58,913 nt of DNA from a virus (lineage: Duplodnaviria; Caudoviricetes), in IMG/VR virus record IMGVR_UViG_3300017747_002695, positions 1 through 58,913 of that record. The stretch is one strand, 5' to 3'. Under the pieces are notes generated by a model, which had not been told where the DNA came from, made no database searches, and worked only from the letters and a program-made list of their open reading frames with translations. A program made the position numbers and the translations under genes. Position 1 is the stretch's first letter. The number at the start of each line of letters is the position of its first letter. Below are positions 10,086-57,558 of this stretch, one piece after another.

Positions 10086-10295
10086 ATGAAATATGAATGT
10101 CAATTTACATCTACTATGCTTAGCTCAGCATCATATGATGATGAGACACAAGAGCTTACTGTAGTGTTTTCTAATGGCAAGTCCTATACGTATGAAGAAG
10201 TAAGTATCAATACTTATATGGATTTGCGCGATGCTCCTAGCGCTGGTCGCTACTTCAATAGCATAAAATCAAATCTCAAGGCTAAGCTACCATGA
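10086..10295 (+). CDS. KTSC domain protein
   Basis: STMLSSASYD...LTVVFSNGKSYTY..V....Y..L..APSAGRYFN..IK. Confidence 0.9.
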   Translation: MKYECQFTSTMLSSASYDDETQELTVVFSNGKSYTYEEVSINTYMDLRDAPSAGRYFNSIKSNLKAKLP

Positions 10296-10300
10296 GTTTA

Positions 10301-10386
10301 GCGGGCTTGTCGGAATTGGTAGACGATAGGGACTTAAAATCCCTTGCTCTAGTAGCGTGCTGGTTCGAGTCCAGTAGCCCGCACCA
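10301..10386 (+). tRNA. tRNA-Leu(TAA)
   Basis: Acceptor GCGGGCT/AGCCCGC, arm AGGGA-CTTAAAA-TCCCT, long variable arm, GGTTCGAGTCC, CCA. Confidence 0.95.
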
Positions 10387-10407
10387 AATATAAAATGGAG
10401 AATGTAA

Positions 10408-11748
10408 ATGAATAATCGCACTGATCCTTATCAAACTCGCGCAAAAGAGCTTGCTATAGCTGCTGGCTTAAATCCTGATGATCGTATTGGAGAAGGTCGC
10501 GGTAGACCTATTTGGACTGATTTTCGTGATGCCGCGCGAAAGGAACATCTCGCTATTGAACAGGCCGCAACTGCTGCCGATATTGCCATCTCCCCACAAA
10601 AAGATGAATTTAAAAATTCTCCTTTAAAAGTTTTTGGCGATCACGATGAGGCAACAATCACTCAAATGCGTAATTGTATGAGTGTAGGCAATGCTGTGGC
10701 TGGTGTCATTTGCGCTGATGGTCATTTGGGTTATGCTCAGCCTGTTGGTGGAGTGATTGCTTATGAGAAGCAGATTTCTATTTCAGGTGTAGGTTTTGAT
10801 ATTGGTTGCGGCAACATGGCTGTAAAGCTTGACCTGCTGTATTCTGATATCAGTGCTATTGTGCCAATGATCACTAAAGATATTGCTCGTATTATTTCGT
10901 TCGGCGTTGGACGTACTAATGATGAAAAAGTAGAGCATTCTCTATTTGATAATGGTGAATTGTGGAAGCTTGCTGATGTTGAGGACTATCGCAAGAAAGC
11001 TGAGCATCAGTTAGGTACAGTAGGCTCTGGTAATCACTATGTAGACTTGATGCATGATGAAAATGGATTTGTATGGGTTGGCGTACACTTTGGTAGCCGT
11101 GGTTTAGGCCATACTTCTGCAACTAAATATTTAAAGGCGGCTGGTGGTAAGGACGGTATGAATGTTCCTCCTGCTGTAGTTGATGAAGATAGCGAAATTG
11201 GGCAGCGTTATATTGCAGCAATGCAATTGGCTGGTAGTTATTCTTATGCTGGCCGCGAATGGGTTGTAGAGCGTATTCGTAAGATGCTTGGCGGCAAAGT
11301 ATTAGATATGGTACACAATCATCATAATTATGCTTGGCGTGAAACTCACAATGGTAAAGATTTATGGGTAGTGCGCAAAGGTGCTACACCAGCATTTCCC
11401 GGTCAACGTGGCTTTGTAGGTGGCTCTATGGGTGATGATGCTGTTATAATTGAAGGTGTAGATAGCGAAGAAGCTAAATTATCTTTGTATTCTACTATCC
11501 ATGGAGCAGGACGTTTGTTTGGCCGCAAAGAAGCTAAGCGACGTTTTTCTAAAGCTGAAATGAATACTTGGTTGCAGCGCAGGGGAGTGACGTTGATTGG
11601 TGCTGATTTAGACGAAAGCCCTATGGCCTATCGACGTTTACCAGAAGTGCTTGCATATCATTCTCAATCCATTAAGGTGCTTCATACGTTGCGACCATTC
11701 GCTGTTGTAATGGCTGGCGATGGTGAGTATGATCCTTTTAAGGATTAA
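10408..11748 (+). CDS. rtcB: RtcB RNA ligase
   Basis: ADGHLGY..PVG, GFDIGCG, QLGTVGSGNHY, HFGSRG, HNHHN, VRKGATPA, GSMG, HGAGR, DESPMAYR. Confidence 0.95.
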   Translation: MNNRTDPYQTRAKELAIAAGLNPDDRIGEGRGRPIWTDFRDAARKEHLAIEQAATAADIAISPQKDEFKNSPLKVFGDHDEATITQMRNCMSVGNAVAGVICADGHLGYAQPVGGVIAYEKQISISGVGFDIGCGNMAVKLDLLYSDISAIVPMITKDIARIISFGVGRTNDEKVEHSLFDNGELWKLADVEDYRKKAEHQLGTVGSGNHYVDLMHDENGFVWVGVHFGSRGLGHTSATKYLKAAGGKDGMNVPPAVVDEDSEIGQRYIAAMQLAGSYSYAGREWVVERIRKMLGGKVLDMVHNHHNYAWRETHNGKDLWVVRKGATPAFPGQRGFVGGSMGDDAVIIEGVDSEEAKLSLYSTIHGAGRLFGRKEAKRRFSKAEMNTWLQRRGVTLIGADLDESPMAYRRLPEVLAYHSQSIKVLHTLRPFAVVMAGDGEYDPFKD

Positions 11749-11755
11749 TTAGTTA

Positions 11756-11830
11756 CTGTGTGTAGCTCAGTCTGGTTAGAGCACCGCATTTGGAGTGCGG
11801 GGGTCATAGGTTCAAATCCTATCACACAGA
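11756..11830 (+). tRNA. tRNA-Pro(TGG), CCA not encoded
   Basis: Acceptor CTGTGTG/CACACAG, arm CCGCA-TTTGGAG-TGCGG, GGTTCAAATCC. Confidence 0.9.
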
Positions 11831-11831
11831 C

Positions 11832-11907
11832 GCCGGTTTAGCTCAGTTGGTAGAGCAGTTGCTTTGTAAGCATCAGGTCGCGCGTTCAAATCGTGCAACC
11901 GGCACCA
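11832..11907 (+). tRNA. tRNA-Thr(TGT)
   Basis: Acceptor GCCGGTT/AACCGGC, loop TTTGTAA, TTCAAAT T-loop, CCA; one T-T mismatch in anticodon stem. Confidence 0.9.
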
Positions 11908-50109: not shown

Positions 50110-50591
50110 TTCTTTTTAGCACGAGGCTCCTTGATCTCCAACGTAGGAGCAGCTTCAGTGATAGTAAGCATATCTTCAATTAGTTTTAAACATTCTTTTG
50201 CGAACTGTTCACCTTTTTCAGCATCATCTGATAATTGGCGATATTCAGTAAGCAGAAAGTTTGGTTTCCAGCTAACTAAACGATCAGCAATAAATGGGCC
50301 TTGATTGCCAAGTTTAGAAATTTTATCTAGCACAGTCTCCACAACATCATTATCAGCAAGATTGTAGTTATACTTCACAGCGGCTTTAAGTTCATAACCG
50401 TTGCCAAGCTCTTTCTTATTCATGCCTTCAGTCTTTTGTGGGAAAGCTCTACTCACAATATACTTACGCAACTCTAATTCTGCGGTTTTTGCTAATTCTA
50501 CGTTTTTTTTAAGCTCATCCCATTTCATCAACAAGTCATCTTCAGACATATTGTCGTAAGGATTTAGTGAAGGCCAAGCTATATCAGACAT
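50106..50591 (-). CDS. Conserved replication-module protein
   Basis: ELELRK...EG....LGNGYELKA...WKP...EYRQL. Confidence 0.6.
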   Translation of the reverse strand: MSDIAWPSLNPYDNMSEDDLLMKWDELKKNVELAKTAELELRKYIVSRAFPQKTEGMNKKELGNGYELKAAVKYNYNLADNDVVETVLDKISKLGNQGPFIADRLVSWKPNFLLTEYRQLSDDAEKGEQFAKECLKLIEDMLTITEAAPTLEIKEPRAKKK

Positions 50592-51108
50592 TTTTATTTT
50601 CCATTCTATAGGCAAATTCGCCTTGTATGTTTTCTGTTACGCTATCGTAAGCATACTTAGCTTCTTCTAAAGTTTTATATGATCCTAAATATCTAGGATG
50701 ACCGTCTATGCATATCTGAGCTAAATATTTTCCTTGATGTATATGTACACCTTTTACGCCTAATTTGTTATCTCGTTGATGCGATCTATTGTACCCATTT
50801 TCTTGTCTAGTAGCTTCTCTAAGATTTTCCCATTTGTTATTATGTTTAACTGTATCGATGTGGTCAATCATTTCGTTGGGCCATCGCCCTGTCATATAAA
50901 GAAAAGCTAGACGGTGGGCTTGGTAGTAAGTGCCATCAAATCTAATTCTTATATAACCTTGCGGCCCTAAACTTCCTGCTATATCTCCTAATTTTATCTT
51001 ACGATTTGTACTTTGCAGCCAAGTAAAAATACCAGTTGAAGGATCATAATGCAACAAGTCCTTAAGTCGTTTATATATAAAAACATCAGGACTTGTTGCC
51101 CAATTCAT
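50584..51108 (-). CDS. HNH endonuclease with AP2-like domain
   Basis: YDPSTGIFTW, AHRLAFLYMTG, IDHID...NN...NLREAT, GVKGV...YLGSY. Confidence 0.9.
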   Translation of the reverse strand: MNWATSPDVFIYKRLKDLLHYDPSTGIFTWLQSTNRKIKLGDIAGSLGPQGYIRIRFDGTYYQAHRLAFLYMTGRWPNEMIDHIDTVKHNNKWENLREATRQENGYNRSHQRDNKLGVKGVHIHQGKYLAQICIDGHPRYLGSYKTLEEAKYAYDSVTENIQGEFAYRMENKNV

Positions 51109-52174
51109 CACGCCACCTTTTCCTGTCCAGCAACCCAACCATTAACTGGAATGTTGGTCACATTATCAGCCTTAGCCGCTGGCCTAGTGATAAGCGCAAA
51201 AGGATCAACAGCGTTATCGTCAGCATGAATATTATCATTATTGAGTGTAGTAATGCCAGCTCGTACAGCCAACATCTCACACTTCAAATCCAATGCGTCA
51301 AGAAAAGTATCATCCTCAGTAGCATAGCCAGCCATACCAACAGTAGACTGAATAGCCATCAGATAAGTTTTGCGCATACTGGTGCGGATAGTCAGAAACT
51401 TCTTTTGATCGGCTTCTTTAAGATTGGCTAGTGTGGTTAGGATATCCATTAGATGTTTTCCTTATGACCAAGCTTCTTCAATGCAGCAGCAAGCTCTTTA
51501 ATATTCTTCTGAGCTGCTAGCTTCTTAGTATTATATTCTTTAATAGTTTTAGCGTAATTAGCTAGAACTTCCTGATGTCCGCTCAGAGCTTTCTGCTCAA
51601 CCTTAAGCTTATCCACCAGTAGCTTGACTGCTACATTCTTAATATCTTCCACGGGTTTTTCCTTTACGAAATCAACTGCTGTTGCGAGAAGTTTATTAGG
51701 TACAGCCTGATAACCTGATGGAATGGCTGCAAAACGAGGAGGGTCAATATCATAATAACGAGAACGTTCACGATTACGCATGATATTGTCATATTCACGG
51801 TAGCAATCATTACAACCGCAACGCTTTAGCTCGTACAGCTTTTCTTGAATATTTCTGCAACCCATCACTCATTCTCCATTTCAATAATAATAATAAGCTC
51901 CTTTGGAATGTTTGGCAAAGCATCTTTCATAACATAGATGCTAGTAACAGCTCCATCATTATGAATAGCATCATAGCGAACAGAATGCTTCTTCTCTGAA
52001 TTGATTTTCATTGGTACTTTAATTTGCATTAACCTTCTCCTTTTCTTTATTCATATATTTTTGAATGATTTGGGCAATGATGTAAGTGTTTGTCTTATTC
52101 TTCAAAGTACCATCAATCTCTACTGCTGCCATCAAGGCGAGAGTAGATGGTTCTGGTAGTTCTTCTTTCATTAT

Positions 52175-52606
52175 TCAATCCTTACTGTAGATAAACGTAG
52201 CCTCAGCATCTTCTTCATAGCGATAGTATCCAATGGGCAAGCGCTCATCTTGACCATCGCGAAGATAAGGACGTATCCAATCAATAAATTTAGCTACTTC
52301 ACCATCATAATTCTTAAAGTCAGAACGGCTGATAAAGCACCAATATCTGCCAATCTTATCATATTCAAAAAGGCTAGTGCTTCGCGGTACAAAATAATAG
52401 CTGCTGCAACGCAACATGCTGCACCAACGATCAGTTGTAAACAACTCATGCTTAGGAGCAATTGAGGGTGCTTCAGCTAAGCCAAGCATAACCTTTATCA
52501 TTTCTACAGCTACAGGATCATCCTTAACCCTAGTCGATATGACTAGCTCAGTATACATACCCATTTCTATTATCCATTTTATATTAAAACTGCTGACTAC
52601 ATCCAC
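52175..52606 (-). CDS. Phage hypothetical protein
   Basis: MGMYTEL...KNYDGEV..F.DW..PY...GYYRYEE. Confidence 0.6.
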   Translation of the reverse strand: MDVVSSFNIKWIIEMGMYTELVISTRVKDDPVAVEMIKVMLGLAEAPSIAPKHELFTTDRWCSMLRCSSYYFVPRSTSLFEYDKIGRYWCFISRSDFKNYDGEVAKFIDWIRPYLRDGQDERLPIGYYRYEEDAEATFIYSKD

Positions 52607-52759
52607 AACTTGGATGTTAAAGGATGCAGCCAGCAGGCTAGTATCCGGCTAGGACGCTACCAGCCTGCAAACCCTAGCCTGCTCAAAAGCTTGGGTCAAT
52701 AGGTCAAAGTGATTTATTCTACTTGACAGGCGATATTTTTCGCTTTAGGCGTTAAAGCT

Positions 52760-52927
52760 ATGTCAAATCAAGAACATATCCCCACAAATGCTCGCCAACA
52801 TATCACCCTTACTGGTGATAGTGTTGCTCAAATAAATAAACTTCGCTCTGAATTAGAGGCGAAGTTAGGAGTGCGCCTATCAATAGCTGATGTTGTTAGG
52901 CATCTTTTGTCTAAAGCCAATCAATAA
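52760..52927 (+). CDS. Ribbon-helix-helix-like protein (55 aa)
   Basis: RQHITLT strand, helix, then SIADVVRHLL; below ORF-track cutoff; TTGACA upstream. Confidence 0.55.
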   Translation: MSNQEHIPTNARQHITLTGDSVAQINKLRSELEAKLGVRLSIADVVRHLLSKANQ

Positions 52928-52943
52928 ATTGGATATTTAAATT

Positions 52944-55364
52944 ATGGTTGGCAGTCTTTTTCAAAACTTGCCTGAAGAATTGCGCGTCCTTAAACAATGG
53001 GTGCTTTGGAAGTATGAGGATGTAGGAGCAGCCAAGCCTACTAAAATTCCTTACAACATCAATGGGCAATTGGCAAGCGTAACCAATCCGAATACTTGGG
53101 CTACCTTTCAAGAAGCGTTCAATGCTTTTGGTTTTGGTGGCTATTCTGGTTTGGGTTTTGTCTTTACTGATAATGACCCATACGTTTTCCTAGATTTAGA
53201 TGATGCTGAGGGTGATGATACAATTCTTCAGCGACACCTTAAAGTTTTTCATGAGTTTAATACCTATGCAGAAATCAGCCCATCAGGAATGGGATTGCAT
53301 TTGATTTGCAAAGGTACTGTAGCAGCAGGACGTAGACGCTCCAAAATAGAAATCTACCCTAGCCAGCGTTATGCTACAATGACTGGTAACGTTTACAATG
53401 GCCGCAACACCATTACCGATTGCCAGCCCCAATTAAAAGTATTGTGGGAACAAATGGGCAGCGGACCTGTAGCTCAATCACTATACAAAGGTGATGATAA
53501 GGAAACTTATGATGATGCTACAATTATTAAACGCGCGGCTGATGCAGTCAACGGCGACAAATTCGCTAAGCTTCATGCGGGTGAATGGAGAGATTTGTAC
53601 TCCTCTCAGTCAGAAGCAGATTTTGCTTATGTTGATATGCTCGCGTTTTACACCCAAAACAGAACGCAAATTATTAGGCTCTTTAGAAGCAGCCCGCTTG
53701 GTGCTAGGGATAAAGCAAAACGTACAGATTACGTATCAGGTATGATCAGCAGATCATTTGATCGCATGCTCCCTCCTATTGATTTTGATGGGATGAAAAA
53801 TGCGCTTGAAAATCATCTTGCAAAAAATAATCAACCGTCTAATACAGACACCAATGGAAGCGTAGCTCAACGGTTAGAGCCAGCCGCTCATAACGGCTTG
53901 GTTGCAGGTTCAAGTCCTGCCGCTTCCACCAATGCGGCATCGTCCAATGGTAGGACAGCAGCCTTTGACGCTGAGAATGTAGGTTCAACTCCTGCTGCCG
54001 TAGCCAATCAAGACTTACCACCCGGTCTATTGGGTGAGATAGCATCTTTCATTTATCAAGCCGCTCCTAGACCTGTTCCTGAAGTAGCTTTAGCTGCTGC
54101 TATTGGTTTGCTGTCCGGTATTACTGGTAGAGCATACAATATATCAGGTACAGGCTTAAACCAGTATGTCTTGCTGTTGGCTATGACTGGAGCAGGCAAG
54201 GAAGCTGCCGCATCTGGTATTAACAAGCTGATGAATACCATTAAGATGCAAGTACCAACTTCAACAGACTTTATCGGACCATCTGAAATATCATCAGGCT
54301 CAGCCCTATTCAAATACTTAGGCAACACAAGCCAATCTTTTATTTCTCTATTAGGCGAGTTTGGCTTGCGCCTACAACAGATGAGCAGCCCCAATGCTAA
54401 TGGATCAGAAGTATCGCTACGTAGAATGTTCCTCGATTTGTATAACAAATCAGGATACTCAGAAACCTTACACGCTTCTGTGTACTCCGATAAAGCAAAC
54501 AATACTTCAGCAGTTCCTAGCCCCTCATTCTCAATCCTTGGAGAAAGTACTCCAGAACGATTTTACGGCGCTCTAAATGAGGATATGATTAGTGAAGGTC
54601 TATTACCTCGTTTCCTACTCATTGAGTACAAAGGCAACCGTCCGCCTCTAAATGAGTATCATACATCTGTAATACCTAGCTTTAGTTTAATTGAACGTCT
54701 GGCTGCATTAGCGGCGCAATGTGAGACAATCAATCATTCTAATCCTCGTCGTGTGATCAATGTGCAGTCAACTCCTGAAGCAGCTAAGTTGCTATATGAT
54801 TTTGACAAGTATGCTGATCAAAAAATAAATGGATCAGGTAAGGAAGTCATTCGCCAGCTTTGGAATAGAGCGCATATTAAAGTGCTAAAGCTGTCTGCAT
54901 TGATTGCTGTTGGTGAGAACATGATTGAGCCCACAATTAATGAAGCTTCTATGCGTTGGGCTGCTAATCTAATTCAAGCTGATATTGATGCAATCACAGT
55001 TCGTTTTGAAGCTGGTGAGATTGGTAGCAACTCTTATGAGGTTAAACAAGCTGGCGAATTATTGCGTGTCATTAAGGATTATATAGTCAGCGACTATTCT
55101 AAAGTTGAGAAGTATTTGCAGTTTAAATCTCCTCAAATGCATCAGGATAAAGTTGTTCCTTATGGATATTTGAACAAGAGATTGGCTGCTGTTGCTGCGT
55201 TTCGTAATGATAAGTCTGGAGCAACATTTGCTATCAAGCGTACTATTCAAACGTTAGTTGATACTGATAGAGTTAGAGAGCTTGGTAAAGTATGGACTAA
55301 TGAAAAGTATGGTACTTCTCAGCGTTGCTTTGCTTTGGCTGATCTATCTATCTTAAACCTGTAA
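52944..55364 (+). CDS. Primase-polymerase fused to helicase-like (DUF3987-like) domain
   Basis: QWVLW, TKIPY, TWATF, FLDLD, YAEISPSGMGLH, ATMTG, SQSEAD; C-terminal AMTGAGKE, EFG, GLLPRF. Confidence 0.9.
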   Translation: MVGSLFQNLPEELRVLKQWVLWKYEDVGAAKPTKIPYNINGQLASVTNPNTWATFQEAFNAFGFGGYSGLGFVFTDNDPYVFLDLDDAEGDDTILQRHLKVFHEFNTYAEISPSGMGLHLICKGTVAAGRRRSKIEIYPSQRYATMTGNVYNGRNTITDCQPQLKVLWEQMGSGPVAQSLYKGDDKETYDDATIIKRAADAVNGDKFAKLHAGEWRDLYSSQSEADFAYVDMLAFYTQNRTQIIRLFRSSPLGARDKAKRTDYVSGMISRSFDRMLPPIDFDGMKNALENHLAKNNQPSNTDTNGSVAQRLEPAAHNGLVAGSSPAASTNAASSNGRTAAFDAENVGSTPAAVANQDLPPGLLGEIASFIYQAAPRPVPEVALAAAIGLLSGITGRAYNISGTGLNQYVLLLAMTGAGKEAAASGINKLMNTIKMQVPTSTDFIGPSEISSGSALFKYLGNTSQSFISLLGEFGLRLQQMSSPNANGSEVSLRRMFLDLYNKSGYSETLHASVYSDKANNTSAVPSPSFSILGESTPERFYGALNEDMISEGLLPRFLLIEYKGNRPPLNEYHTSVIPSFSLIERLAALAAQCETINHSNPRRVINVQSTPEAAKLLYDFDKYADQKINGSGKEVIRQLWNRAHIKVLKLSALIAVGENMIEPTINEASMRWAANLIQADIDAITVRFEAGEIGSNSYEVKQAGELLRVIKDYIVSDYSKVEKYLQFKSPQMHQDKVVPYGYLNKRLAAVAAFRNDKSGATFAIKRTIQTLVDTDRVRELGKVWTNEKYGTSQRCFALADLSILNL
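53856..53931 (+). tRNA. tRNA(CAT), probably Ile2, nested in primase CDS
   Basis: GGAAGCG/CGCTTCC acceptor, GCTC/GAGC D stem, AGCCG-CTCATAA-CGGCT, GCAGG-TTCAAGT-CCTGC, ACCA. Confidence 0.92.
53933..54006 (+). tRNA. tRNA-Gln(TTG), nested in primase CDS
   Basis: TGCGGCA/TGCCGTA acceptor, GTCC/GGAC D stem, CAGC-CTTTGAC-GCTG, GTAGG-TTCAACT-CCTGC, GCCA. Confidence 0.88.
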
Positions 55365-55371
55365 TAACTAG

Positions 55372-55608
55372 GATATCTAATAAAAATCAGCCGATCTAAT
55401 GGAAATCTAGCTGTTAGATATCGTTAGATATTGAGTAAAATCAGTGACTTAGGAAAAATCTAATGGCATCTAAATATCTAATGGCTCTTAGCACCCCCTC
55501 CTAACCCCTTCTCTATACCTATTTCTCTCTCTATTAGATATATTAGATATATTAGATATCCTACGTTTTAAGGGGTTTTCGTGCTAGATCGGCGTTAGGG
55601 AAATCTAA
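55372..55608. repeat. Iteron-like ATCTAA/TTAGAT array, putative replication origin
   Basis: At least 11 hexamer copies in both orientations just after the primase gene. Confidence 0.6.
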
Positions 55609-57558
55609 GGTGGTGGAATGGAGTGATGGAAATGATAATTCAAATTAGACTGCATGAAGATTTACCAACTAATGCTCAAAATGCTTTACGCTACGCAATA
55701 GAGCTTGGTATATGGCGAGCTAAATGGAGACAAGCTGAGGATGAAAAGGATTACTACACAATGGATAGATTGCAGGAAGATTACGAAAGAGTAGGCTTAC
55801 CATGACAAACATTAATATGGTCTGGAGATATAAACATTATATTGCTATCATTGAGGCTTGTGATATAGCATTATCAGATCAGTGGTCTGGTGAAATAAGA
55901 AGGCTTTTAAATGTTAAAAGAACTAAAGCTTTCCAAAGGCTATTAGACTTTCAGATAGCATTTCATAGTGGAGACTAGAACGATGACTAATTTTGATACT
56001 AAGTTGATGCAGACATATAAGACTGTTGGAGATAGGCGAGATATGATTAAGGAAAGCTATAGTGTGAAACTGAAGGTCACCCTCTCCGCGCTTGCAGCCG
56101 GGAGGAGCTCATAATGTTTGGGAACCGCTGTTTGGGATTGCCGGGGTGCGGACATTCTACAAACTGGACGTGCCCTTGTACGTGCGAGGAGGAAATAGAT
56201 GGACGTGATCGTGAACCCGCGATCTCGCGCGTAAAGCTCAGCCAACAGGCCGAGGCAGAAGCTATTAAAATTGATAGTGTGGGCATTAGGACTATTCAAA
56301 TTGACGATAGAACTAATGAACTGCTAAATATTGAAATTTGGAACGCTGCTATAGATGCTGCTGCTAAGTATTGTGATGAGATGGGGGAAGAAAGTAGAAT
56401 TGCCGAAAATATTAGAGGACTAAAAAAATGAGCGTTCGCAAGCTTAAGACTTCTATACTGCATTACAACAAAGCTAAGGTTGTAGATTGCCCTCAATGTA
56501 AAGTGAAGGCTGGTTACTCTTGCGTTAGAGCAGATGGAAAGAATGGTGGCACGCATAGAGCTAGGGTAATCAAATGGGAGAGATGATTATATTGCAGTGC
56601 AATATAAAATAATTAAAAATAGTGCTTGCAATTGAATTGATGACCGTCTATTGTATGAATACAGACAACGGAGCAAGCAAATGGTAAATCATTTCAAGAC
56701 TGAAGCAGCAGCTAAGGCTCATTTGATCAGCAAGGGTTTCACTCAATTGTCTAAATCTACTGAAGTTTGGGTTAGTGCTGATAGCTATGTAGAAGCTCGC
56801 ATTGAAATTGATTTGCATCGTGGTCCTTATATTTATTTTAAAAATAACTGTTGACTTATCAATTGATCCGTATAGGATGTAGAAATCAATAGGAGAACTA
56901 AAATGGTACAAGTTGGTGGAAAGATTAAGCGCATCAAGCCGTCACAGCCGCAGTTTGTTGTACAGAAGGCTGCTTCAGATAATGAGTATCTGAAGCTTTC
57001 GTATGATGGTGTTGACATTATCATTGAATGGGTTGGTGATCCTAAGGCAGCTTCCAAGTTTGATAGCAAGTATCAAGCTAAGTGCCGCGTGCGCGAGATT
57101 GATGATGTTCCTGATACGCGATGCTTTAAGGAGTTGAGCGCATGAGCTTGCTATATAAAGCTCAAAGATATGTGGCTAATGAGTTGGCTAGCAATAGATT
57201 GCCACCTAGTCATAATGATGATACTGTTCAGGTACGAATTGCTAGATGGAATAAACTAGCTGACGAAGCTATGCCTGAAGTTGAAGCTGTTATTAATGCT
57301 ATGACGCATTTTGAATTTTTAAAGCTGTTGAGTGACGTGCTAGAGGAGGTTGAGTGATGAAAGTACTTATTATATCACTAGTGGCAGCTATTATCCTAGA
57401 TTTTACTTTGAAGTTTGTACCAGTTACGCCATTTTGGTTTCAATGTTTGTTTGGAGTTATGAGTTGGTTTGCTTGTGAAAATATTGTTAAAAAGATACTT
57501 GACTAATTGATTGCATCCGTCCATAGTTTAAATACTGAATAGCAAATGGAGAATAAAA

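What the first reader, a model, noticed from the sequence alone, without database searches (positions are those of the whole stretch)
53856..54006. Two intact tRNA genes translated as the linker of the primase-helicase
Seen: complete cloverleafs with CCA ends for tRNA(CAT) and tRNA-Gln(TTG), 1 nt apart, lie on the sense strand wholly inside the 806-aa ORF. They read GSVAQRLEPAAHNGLVAGSSPAASTNAASSNGRTAAFDAENVGSTPAAVA between the primase domains and the helicase-like domain. There is no stop before them and no evident RBS and start after them. Known: bacterial and phage tRNA genes are normally intergenic and are cut out by RNase P and 3' nucleases. Inference: each transcript yields either full-length protein or two tRNAs plus a non-stop primase fragment. 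That would couple replication to tRNA processing and ribosome traffic, or make the mRNA a sensor or decoy for anticodon nucleases that RtcB could repair.
Basis: partly seen in the sequence, partly recalled or inferred. Interest (0 to 1): 0.92.

Follow-up and report, generated by a model that had tools for sequence, protein, structure and literature searches.

The report
tRNA genes nested in primase linker
Two intact tRNA genes lie in frame inside the flexible linker of a phage's primase-helicase gene, and many related uncultured phages show the same layout, so one stretch of DNA appears to serve both as protein code and as tRNA gene.

Summary
ARAGORN and Rfam find tRNA(CAT) at 53856-53931 and tRNA-Gln(TTG) at 53933-54006. 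Both lie on the sense strand inside the uninterrupted 806-codon primase-helicase ORF 52944-55364.

- **Not an assembly artefact.** 24 of 80 related IMG/VR loci carry 1-3 tRNAs at the same linker, and all 37 are read through in an open frame. At least 70 of the 120 best homologous protein clusters carry tRNA-derived peptides.
- **The cloverleaves are conserved.** Compensatory changes occur in 16 of 21 and 17 of 21 pairs, with about 99% of cells paired and 0 of 500 shuffles as high.
- **The peptide is tolerated.** It falls in a disordered linker with pLDDT below 50 at residues 296-355.
- **tRNA content turns over fast.** The states seen are none, Met, Gln, Met-Gln, Gln-Met, Gln-Met-Arg, Tyr and Leu.

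Best reading: these are functional tRNA genes housed in a permissive linker and released from the primase mRNA. Expression was not tested.

The closest precedent is the bioinformatic report of selC nested in selB (PMC8124441). Nine literature searches found no phage case.

The parts
52944..55364 (+). Primase-helicase ORF of 806 codons plus stop, uninterrupted
   Evidence: One search lists the ORF. One search gives an end-to-end match to phrog_3022 DNA primase (E = 1.3e-240, residues 6-796 on profile positions 6-785 of 788). One search finds Pfam NrS1-1_pol-like_HBD and DUF3987.
52944..53828 (+). N-terminal primase-polymerase (AEP) plus helix-bundle domain, residues 1-295
   Evidence: Searches match the phage NrS-1 primase-polymerase N300 structures (phmmer E about 1e-26, Foldseek E = 3e-15). 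One search gives pLDDT mostly above 90.
53829..54008 (+). Disordered interdomain linker, residues 296-355, hypervariable among relatives
   Evidence: pLDDT below 50 and no secondary structure at residues 296-355; this is the only unalignable part of the protein.
53856..53931 (+). tRNA with anticodon CAT (called Met, probably the AUA-reading tRNA-Ile2), 76 nt with encoded CCA, read as codons 305-330
   Evidence: ARAGORN. (Rfam, 68.7 bits). (covariation in 19 homologues). (best E. coli matches are annotated tRNA-Ile and carry a CAT anticodon).
53933..54006 (+). tRNA-Gln (anticodon TTG), 74 nt with encoded CCA, read as codons 330-355
   Evidence: ARAGORN. (Rfam, 56.4 bits). (covariation in 15 homologues).
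54009..55364 (+). C-terminal AAA+ helicase domain (DUF3987) with Walker A around T415-G416-x-G418-K419
   Evidence: DUF3987. (MCM-type AAA+ helicases, Foldseek E about 1e-6). (invariant Walker A residues in 69 sequences).
54030..55364 (+). The 444-aa product on record for this contig, starting at the TTG codon of L363. This looks like a gene call truncated at the tRNAs, not a separate gene.
   Evidence: P0116 is 100% identical and begins LGEIASF; no Shine-Dalgarno match before it.

Best explanation
These are real, functional tRNA genes housed in frame in the disordered linker between the primase-polymerase and helicase domains of an essential replication gene. The tRNAs are tRNA-Gln(UUG) and a CAU-anticodon tRNA that is probably the AUA-reading tRNA-Ile2. 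The same nucleotides meet two requirements. They fold into cloverleaves, and they stay free of stops in the one frame that keeps the 806-aa protein whole. The tRNAs show no promoter of their own, so they are transcribed as part of the primase mRNA. Ribosomes read through them and add about 50 small or polar residues to a linker that tolerates almost any sequence. When the segment is free of ribosomes, or when the message decays, the cloverleaves fold. Host RNase P then cuts their 5' ends and host 3' nucleases trim back to the encoded CCA, which releases the tRNAs and ends that message's coding life. One transcript can therefore give protein first and tRNAs afterwards. The linker acts as a safe harbour where tRNA cassettes are repeatedly gained, lost, swapped and reordered among related phages. 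Shown here: the tRNA structures, the open frame, the recurrence, the covariation and the disorder of the linker. Inferred: transcription from the primase promoter, processing, aminoacylation and the order of events.
For: (1) The tRNAs are genuine by two programs.
(2) The layout recurs in independent assemblies. 24 of 80 IMG/VR loci carry 37 sense-strand tRNAs at the same linker: 19 CAT, 15 Gln-TTG, 1 Arg-TCT, 1 Tyr-GTA and 1 Leu-TAA. L014 and a contig L106 from a genome collection add two more.
(3) All 37, plus the 2 in the window, lie inside an uninterrupted primase-helicase frame. Every CAT tRNA is read in phase 0, its only stop-free frame.
(4) No stop or frameshift in the linker occurs in any of the 80 loci.
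(5) Selection acts on the tRNA fold. For CAT and Gln respectively, 98.9% and 98.7% of cells are paired, and 16 of 21 and 17 of 21 pairs show changes on both sides. In both cases 0 of 500 shuffles reach this, and slid controls give 28-51% paired.
(6) The anticodon is invariant in 19 of 19 and 15 of 15 sequences.
(7) The 19 CAT tRNAs have no internal indel. The one internal indel among the Gln tRNAs is 3 nt long, as a frame constraint predicts.
(8) Variability follows RNA architecture, not codon position. Entropy at codon positions 1/2/3 is 0.43/0.50/0.59 and 0.54/0.70/0.78, and stems vary more than loops.
(9) The tRNA-coded residues 305-355 lie within the segment of pLDDT below 50, residues 296-355.
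(10) Each is the only copy of its isoacceptor in a complete 58.9-kb genome. All five phage tRNAs match A-ending codons that this 39.9% GC genome uses heavily: TTA 420, CAA 391, ATA 261.
(11) Promoter-like sites are no more frequent than chance: 7 found against 8.8 +/- 2.6 expected.
Against: There is no expression evidence of any kind. The tools for sequencing runs and reads were not available for this window. All tRNA-bearing relatives are uncultured, and none of the 9 named isolates examined has tRNAs in this gene.

The homologues used for covariation were picked by a program that requires a cloverleaf, so decayed copies would be under-sampled. A covariance-model search of 82 loci at E up to 10 did, however, find no relics in tRNA-less linkers.

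The phage also keeps three tRNAs in ordinary intergenic sites, so the linker is not the only available home, and why it is favoured is unexplained.

Rapid turnover needs at least 10 presence/absence changes on a 69-row tree. tRNA similarity does not track primase similarity. Both are compatible with frequent re-import of tRNAs rather than long maintenance in place.

The Ile2 assignment rests on similarity only.
Confidence: 0.72

Rival explanations
1. The cloverleaves act in cis or as decoys rather than as decoders. They could be RNase P cleavage sites that limit primase-helicase synthesis or split the message. They could be ribosome pause sites between the two domains. They could be bait for host anticodon nucleases or tRNA-modifying enzymes.
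For: Their position in the middle of an essential ORF makes any processing event a regulatory event for the protein. The primase start has a weak Shine-Dalgarno pairing, rank 50 of 61 ORFs (a rough calculation on naive starts). The phage encodes RtcB. The tRNA species in the linker vary between relatives, as if the fold mattered more than the identity.
Against: Anticodons are invariant within each tRNA type, and CCA ends are encoded in 18 of 19 and 14 of 15 sequences. A cleavage site or pause site would not need either feature. The species match A-ending codons that the genome uses heavily. 10 of 31 rows in the same clade do without any tRNA in the linker, so no regulatory role is essential to the protein.
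Confidence: 0.12
2. The tRNAs are transient passengers. tRNA cassettes are repeatedly dropped into a recombination-prone, sequence-tolerant linker. Only in-frame, stop-free insertions survive, and they persist briefly without being selected there. The apparent conservation reflects selection at their sources.
For: At least 10 presence/absence changes and 18 state changes are needed on the 69-row tree. The close pair L020 (Met) and L048 (none) differ by a clean replacement of the tRNA with about 84 unrelated nt. The window's tRNA-Gln is 91.9% identical to that of L035, whose primase is only 58% identical and which has the opposite tRNA order. N- and C-terminal domain identities are discordant in L087, L027 and L035.
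Against: No decayed tRNA copies were found in 82 loci, although passengers should erode. The embedded tRNAs are the only copies of their isoacceptors in the window's genome. Five genomes with a tRNA-less linker gave no match as strong as the linker CAT tRNAs elsewhere: best 66 bits, against 71-103 bits for the linker copies. Sister lineages share the same arrangement while differing by compensatory changes, for example L037 and L089.
Confidence: 0.1
3. It is an artefact. Either a misassembly joins a tRNA cluster to two separate genes, or primase and helicase are in truth two genes split at the tRNAs.
For: The window is a metagenome-assembled virus record. The product on record for it is a 444-aa C-terminal piece only.
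Against: The same layout is present in 24 of 80 other IMG/VR loci and in a contig from a genome collection. Full-length 750-830-aa proteins with tRNA-derived peptides were called from several independent sources. The frame is open in 39 of 39 cases. tRNA-less relatives and named isolates encode one polypeptide. There is no stop upstream and no ATG before the Walker A motif downstream.
Confidence: 0.02

Closest known systems
selC (tRNA-Sec) nested in the selB ORF of Alphaproteobacteria (Mukai 2021, PMC8124441; abstract, introduction and discussion read)
   Same: An entire tRNA gene lies in sense orientation inside a protein ORF and is translated as extra residues. The author proposes that folding and processing of the tRNA represses full-length protein. 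That evidence is bioinformatic too.
   Different: There the tRNA lies in a C-terminal extension at the end of the ORF, it is a single tRNA, and the protein is the factor that binds that very tRNA. Here one to three ordinary elongator tRNAs lie in the middle of an essential replication gene between two folded domains. No functional tie between tRNA and protein is known. The host is a phage, and the tRNA content turns over rapidly. That paper calls itself the first report for bacteria.
Mitochondrial tRNAs integrated in protein genes, for example tRNA-Lys inside cox1 of Armadillidium vulgare (seen only as cited in the discussion of PMC8124441; original not read)
   Same: A whole tRNA in direct orientation inside a coding region of a compact genome.
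   Different: That is an organellar genome with reduced 60-nt tRNAs under extreme compaction. Here the tRNAs are canonical 74-76-nt tRNAs with encoded CCA, in a phage that also has intergenic tRNA sites.
Ordinary intergenic phage tRNA clusters, including this phage's own tRNA-Leu and tRNA-Pro/Thr beside RtcB. Tightly spaced dimeric precursors in T4 are recalled, not checked.
   Same: The same kind of tRNAs, for A-ending codons of an AT-rich phage. They are spaced from -1 to 29 nt apart (coordinates) and presumably matured by host RNase P.
   Different: Those lie between genes. The linker tRNAs are under the added constraint of an open reading frame, and their maturation destroys a message.
tRNA genes co-transcribed with protein genes in E. 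coli operons
   Same: tRNA and mRNA come from one transcript and are separated by RNase P and RNase E.
   Different: There the tRNAs lie outside the ORFs, so processing leaves the coding parts intact.

Membership tests
tRNA (Rfam RF00005) | Covariance-model score above the curated gathering score | tested here: met
   68.7 and 56.4 bits against 29. ARAGORN calls both.
tRNA (Rfam RF00005) | Four-helix cloverleaf maintained in evolution | tested here: met
   98.9% and 98.7% of cells paired. 16 of 21 and 17 of 21 pairs show changes on both sides. 0 of 500 shuffles are as high, and slid controls give 28-51%. Caveat: the homologues were chosen by ARAGORN.
tRNA (Rfam RF00005) | Seven-base anticodon loop with T33, a T8 and GG in the D loop, GGTTCRANTCC T arm, encoded CCA | tested here: met
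   Read from the sequence and the Rfam alignment. CCA is present in 18 of 19 CAT and 14 of 15 Gln homologues. The list of canonical positions is recalled knowledge.
tRNA (Rfam RF00005) | A mature, aminoacylated RNA is produced | not testable with these tools
tRNA-Ile2 (CAU anticodon modified to lysidine, reads AUA) | CAT anticodon and closer likeness to tRNA-Ile(CAT) than to tRNA-Met | tested here: met
   blastn against 5,426 E. coli genomes gave matches in 5,172. All 8 of the 8 rows shown, spread over the ranking, are annotated tRNA-Ile. The fetched copy has a CAT anticodon and 57 of 76 identical positions.
tRNA-Ile2 (CAU anticodon modified to lysidine, reads AUA) | Recognition by TilS and charging by IleRS | not testable with these tools
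   The acceptor stems vary among the 19 homologues. The determinants for the unknown host are unknown.
Phage primase-helicase (phrog_3022; NrS-1-type primase-polymerase plus DUF3987 helicase) | End-to-end profile match and both domains present | tested here: met
   phrog_3022 at E = 1.3e-240 over residues 6-796. PF22763 and PF13148. NrS-1 N300 and MCM-type AAA+ folds.
Phage primase-helicase (phrog_3022; NrS-1-type primase-polymerase plus DUF3987 helicase) | Conserved catalytic motifs: acidic DxD and a conserved His in the N-terminal domain, Walker A GxGK in the C-terminal domain | tested here: met
   D84, D86, H119, G416, G418 and K419 are invariant in 69 sequences. Assigning them to these motifs is from general knowledge.
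Nested tRNA-in-ORF of the selB/selC type (PMC8124441) | Whole tRNA, sense strand, inside the ORF | tested here: met
Nested tRNA-in-ORF of the selB/selC type (PMC8124441) | tRNA in a C-terminal extension of a protein that binds that tRNA | tested here: not met
   Here the tRNAs are at codons 305-355 of 806, between two domains. The protein is a replication enzyme.
Split gene (separately translated primase and helicase) | A stop or frameshift at the linker, and a start with a ribosome-binding site after it | tested here: not met
   None of the 80 loci has a stop in the linker. The first ATG after the linker is M414, inside Walker A. The TTG of the recorded 444-aa call has no Shine-Dalgarno match.
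Intein or intron (other in-frame or spliced inserts) | Splicing or homing-endonuclease domains, or a ribozyme | tested here: not met
   Pfam finds only the two replication domains. Rfam finds only tRNA above threshold in 52500-55800. A different homologue, P0110, does carry intein-type Pfam domains.

The most novel reading that the evidence does not exclude
The embedded tRNAs are a programmed device, not just lodgers, and they do two things. First, RNase P cleavage of the folded cloverleaves sets how much primase-helicase each message can yield. It turns a replication message into tRNAs as translation initiation falls, and may release a stand-alone primase-polymerase fragment through rescue of the non-stop 5' piece. 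Second, the conserved 75-nt tRNA islands in an otherwise unalignable linker serve as the crossover points at which primase and helicase modules, and the tRNAs themselves, are exchanged between phages.
Probability: 0.2. Interest if true: 0.92.

Novelty: new variant of a known kind. Interest (0 to 1): 0.82.

Why it matters
- **A natural, recurrent dual-use sequence.** It would be a case of one sequence selected both as a structured RNA gene and as translated protein code. It has dozens of natural variants, including matched relatives with no tRNA, one, two or three tRNAs, and both orders. That variety makes the competition between translation and RNA processing testable with simple constructs.
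- **Disordered linkers as harbours for RNA genes.** It suggests that disordered protein linkers can house RNA genes in compact genomes.
- **A source of new linker sequence.** It also suggests that new linker sequence can arise from RNA genes.
- **A practical annotation problem.** Pipelines that forbid overlap between tRNAs and coding sequences will either cut the gene or drop the tRNAs. The record for this very contig holds only a 444-aa C-terminal piece. Cases like this are therefore probably under-reported.

Tried and rejected
**Misassembly.** Rejected because of recurrence in other assemblies.

**Split gene.** Rejected. The stops in L055 lie past the gene's end. The stops in L067 and L068 are the gene's own stop. 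L066 has one stop at residue 441 of the match, inside the helicase domain and not in the linker.

**tRNA relics in tRNA-less linkers.** I built model R1 from the 19 CAT tRNAs and searched 82 loci at E up to 10. It found only the tRNAs ARAGORN had called, plus two minus-strand tRNAs outside the gene. Model R2 for Gln was built but never used in a search.

**Relocated copies.** Five genomes whose linker lacks tRNAs gave only lower-scoring matches to R1 elsewhere, at most 66 bits. One of these is the tRNA-Thr that ARAGORN called in L034.

**An own promoter.** The consensus scan stayed at chance level.

**Named isolates.** None of the 9 checked has a tRNA in this gene: Kakheti25, PSV3, Lucius, Shy, PAJD-1, slur01, VpKK5, VspDsh_1 and Knedl.

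**Yersinia phage YeP1.** A blastn hit covered both tRNAs. It proved to be an ordinary intergenic tRNA set downstream of an antiterminator gene.

**Host.** Not determined. The genome-contig scan gave one contig assigned to a metagenome bin, plus matches to the helicase half only in Alphaproteobacteria.

**Literature.** Nine searches found the selB/selC paper and no phage case.
- PMC7067961, PMC9476923, PMC10986025 and PMC6409571 were opened for passages only and were irrelevant.
- The five papers holding the selB/selC title were seen as a listing only.
- Subscription journals are not in the library, and supplements were closed and not consulted.

**Peptide-motif count.** The figure of at least 70 of 120 rests on peptide motifs, not DNA. 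On the 69 rows whose DNA was checked, the CAT motif found 17 of 17 with 0 of 52 false hits. The Gln motif found 13 of 14 with 0 of 55 false hits. The motifs were designed on these same rows. tRNA species read only from peptides in other proteins, possibly Thr and Pro, could not be checked.

**Rows left out of the tree and of the alignment used for the fold (A3).** Thirteen of the 80 loci were dropped: L032, L036, L041, L042, L055, L062, L063, L065, L066, L068, L080, L082 and L091. They are duplicates, truncated, or hold a stop in the matched range. The window and L014 were added.
Full report
**1. The observation.** The window is a complete 58,913-bp virus record with direct terminal repeats and 39.9% G+C. 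ARAGORN finds five tRNAs. Two of them, tRNA(cat) at 53856-53931 and tRNA-Gln(ttg) at 53933-54006, lie on the + strand 1 nt apart. Rfam's tRNA model scores them 68.7 and 56.4 bits against a gathering score of 29, with full-length alignments. Both end in an encoded CCA. Both lie wholly inside the single 806-codon ORF 52944..55364. Each tRNA has one stop-free frame out of three, and that is the frame the ORF uses. The same is true of the three intergenic tRNAs of this phage. One open frame is therefore a common property of tRNAs, not a special adaptation.

**2. The gene.**
- The ORF matches phrog_3022 (DNA primase) end to end, at E = 1.3e-240.
- It carries Pfam NrS1-1_pol-like_HBD and DUF3987.
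- Its N-terminal 250 residues match the solved phage NrS-1 primase-polymerase by sequence and by fold. The C-terminal half matches MCM-type AAA+ helicases by fold.
- An AlphaFold model built on a 69-sequence alignment has mean pLDDT 85.7 with two well-folded halves. The long low-confidence segment is residues 296-355, with pLDDT below 50 and no secondary structure.
- The tRNA-coded residues 305-355 fall inside that segment. In alignments this is the only part of the protein that cannot be aligned.

**3. Recurrence.** Named relatives at 45-53% identity (Septimatrevirus Kakheti25, Sphingomonas phage Lucius, Escherichia phage Shy) encode one polypeptide with a short Ala/Pro-rich linker and no tRNA. 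Five further isolates of Queuovirinae and Iggyvirus also have none. Uncultured relatives in IMG/VR differ. Of 80 loci found with a family alignment, 24 carry one to three sense-strand tRNAs at the same place in the gene. There are 37 in all: 19 CAT, 15 Gln-TTG, 1 Arg-TCT, 1 Tyr-GTA and 1 Leu-TAA. A 25th locus has a minus-strand tRNA outside the gene.

All 37 lie inside an uninterrupted primase-helicase frame, as far as each contig reaches. Every CAT tRNA starts at codon position 1. Gln starts at codon position 3, except for one row where ARAGORN's boundary is 1 nt off the covariance model's. L014 and a contig from a genome collection add two more cases.

Among the 120 best protein clusters from a 5.8-billion-protein collection, drawn from several sources, at least 70 contain the peptide signatures of a translated CAT and/or Gln tRNA inside full-length 750-830-aa proteins. 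On the 69 rows whose DNA I had checked, these signatures gave 0 false hits among the 52 and 55 rows without the respective tRNA. Misassembly is therefore excluded.

**4. Two layers of selection.** The cloverleaves are kept by compensatory change.

| Measure | CAT tRNA (19 seqs, 18 distinct) | tRNA-Gln (15 seqs) |
|---|---|---|
| Cells forming a standard pair | 98.9% | 98.7% |
| Pairs with changes on both sides | 16 of 21 | 17 of 21 |
| Shuffles reaching the observed values | 0 of 500 | 0 of 500 |

Slid-partner controls give only 28-51% paired cells across the two alignments. The anticodons never vary. Variation follows RNA architecture rather than codon position. Stems vary more than loops, and codon positions 1 and 2 vary almost as much as position 3, with entropies of 0.43/0.50/0.59 and 0.54/0.70/0.78. 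The peptide is therefore not what is conserved.

The frame is nonetheless guarded. The 19 CAT tRNAs have no internal indel. The single internal indel among the Gln tRNAs is 3 nt long. None of the 80 loci has a stop or frameshift in the linker. One caveat applies: the homologues were picked by a cloverleaf-seeking program. A covariance-model search of 82 loci at E up to 10 nevertheless found no eroded copies in tRNA-less linkers.

**5. Turnover.** I built a tree of 69 primase-helicases with the linker columns removed (FastTree).
- All tRNA-bearing rows but one fall in a single clade of 31 rows, of which 21 have tRNAs.
- The 32-row sister clade has none.
- The tree needs at least 10 presence/absence changes and 18 changes of state.
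- Within the window's own 11-row subclade the states are none, Met, Gln-Met, Met-Gln and Tyr.
- The close pair L020 (Met) and L048 (none) differ by a clean replacement of the tRNA with about 84 unrelated nt.
- tRNA similarity does not follow primase similarity. The window's tRNA-Gln is 91.9% identical to that of L035, whose protein is 58% identical and whose tRNAs are in the opposite order.
- Five genomes whose linker lacks tRNAs gave no match elsewhere as strong as the linker CAT tRNAs.

**6. What the tRNAs are for.**
- The CAT tRNA's E. coli matches are annotated tRNA-Ile in all 8 rows shown, out of matches in 5,172 of 5,426 genomes. The fetched copy has a CAT anticodon.
- It is therefore probably the lysidine-dependent AUA reader rather than tRNA-Met. 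This rests on similarity alone.
- On that reading all five phage tRNAs (Leu-UAA, Pro-UGG, Thr-UGU, Gln-UUG and Ile2) serve A-ending codons.
- This AT-rich genome uses those codons heavily: TTA 420, CAA 391 against CAG 233, and ATA 261, in 61 naively called ORFs.
- That is the usual pattern for phage tRNAs (general knowledge).

**7. Mechanism.**
- Shown: real tRNA structures under selection, an ORF that must be read through them, a disordered tolerant linker, and no promoter-like signal above chance (7 sites against 8.8 +/- 2.6 expected).
- Inferred: the tRNAs are made from the primase message. RNase P needs only the folded tRNA, and the encoded CCA ends and spacers of -1 to 29 nt resemble ordinary clustered tRNAs, so host enzymes should suffice.
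- Excision necessarily severs the ORF. This need not be an either-or choice for each transcript. A message can be translated and then yield its tRNAs as stable decay products.
- The primase start has a weak Shine-Dalgarno pairing, rank 50 of 61 (rough). Sparse ribosome traffic would leave time for folding, but this is a hint only.
- I put 0.72 on the reading of functional tRNAs housed in a permissive linker, with both products made from one message. The rivals are a cis-regulatory or decoy role (0.12), transient passengers (0.10) and artefact (0.02).

**8. Comparison with what is known.** The nearest precedent is Mukai 2021 (PMC8124441; abstract, introduction and discussion read). It is a bioinformatic report of tRNA-Sec nested in a C-terminal extension of selB. 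It describes itself as the first such case in bacteria, and it cites mitochondrial cases. The present case differs in five ways:
- It is in phages.
- The tRNAs lie in mid-ORF between two folded domains of an essential enzyme.
- There are up to three ordinary elongator tRNAs in tandem.
- No functional link between tRNA and protein is known.
- Turnover is fast.

Nine full-text searches found no phage report. The library lacks most subscription journals. I therefore rate the finding a new variant of a known kind. It also has a practical consequence. The protein on record for this contig is only the 444-aa C-terminal piece starting at a TTG 24 nt after tRNA-Gln. That looks like a gene caller refusing to overlap a tRNA.

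**9. Limits.** There are no expression data, no isolate and no known host. The count of 70 of 120 rests on peptide motifs. The tree is a quick FastTree.

Noticed in passing
window 10301-11907: An RtcB RNA ligase gene at 10408-11748 (Pfam E = 2.1e-64) is bracketed by the phage's three intergenic tRNAs: Leu(taa) at 10301-10386, Pro(tgg) at 11756-11831 and Thr(tgt) at 11832-11907. This looks like a tRNA-repair module. A KTSC-domain ORF lies just upstream at 10086-10295.
   Followed up: partly
window 54030-55364: The protein on record for this contig (P0116, 444 aa) starts at the TTG codon of L363, just after tRNA-Gln. The real ORF was apparently truncated by a gene caller that avoids tRNAs.
   Followed up: yes
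L087, L027, L035 against the window (alignment A3): Identity to the window jumps from about 30-50% before the linker to about 90-100% in residues 360-650, then falls again after about residue 660. This suggests exchange of primase and helicase modules at the linker, or very uneven rates. It was not resolved.
   Followed up: partly
L048:2400-2485 against L020:2401-2476: In the nearest tRNA-less relative the tRNA is replaced by about 84 nt of unrelated sequence. The homology between the two runs into the first 6 nt of the tRNA.
   Followed up: partly
P0110: A 1,102-aa homologue carries intein-type and LAGLIDADG Pfam domains (PF05203, PF14528). This gene therefore also hosts inteins in some phages.
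   Followed up: no
L066:1501-3732: One in-frame stop at residue 441 of the match replaces the N of the conserved LYNKSG motif in the helicase domain. It could be a sequencing error, a pseudogene or recoding.
   Followed up: no
L002 (Pseudomonas phage PSV3 records): The primase-helicase is annotated as four or five separate hypothetical proteins, and tblastn needs 3-4 pieces to cover it. This suggests frameshifts in those assemblies. ARAGORN finds no tRNA there.
   Followed up: partly
L107-L111 (Alphaproteobacteria genomes): Only the helicase half, query residues from about 323-361 onward, has relatives in these bacterial chromosomes, at 39-44% identity. The C-terminal module thus also occurs with other or no N-terminal partners.
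   Followed up: no
window 50584-51138 (- strand): An HNH_3 homing-type endonuclease ORF (Pfam E = 3.5e-16) lies 1.8 kb upstream of the primase gene on the opposite strand.
   Followed up: no
linkers of tRNA-less relatives (listing, e.g. P0029, P0035, P0047): Several tRNA-less linkers are long, low-complexity runs rich in Asn, Ser and His, of up to about 100 residues. This shows how freely the linker's length and sequence drift.
   Followed up: no
proteins P0082, P0112 (listing): Their linker peptides look like translated tRNAs of further species. By my reading of the anticodon-loop codons these are possibly Thr(TGT) and Pro(TGG). The DNA could not be fetched.
   Followed up: partly
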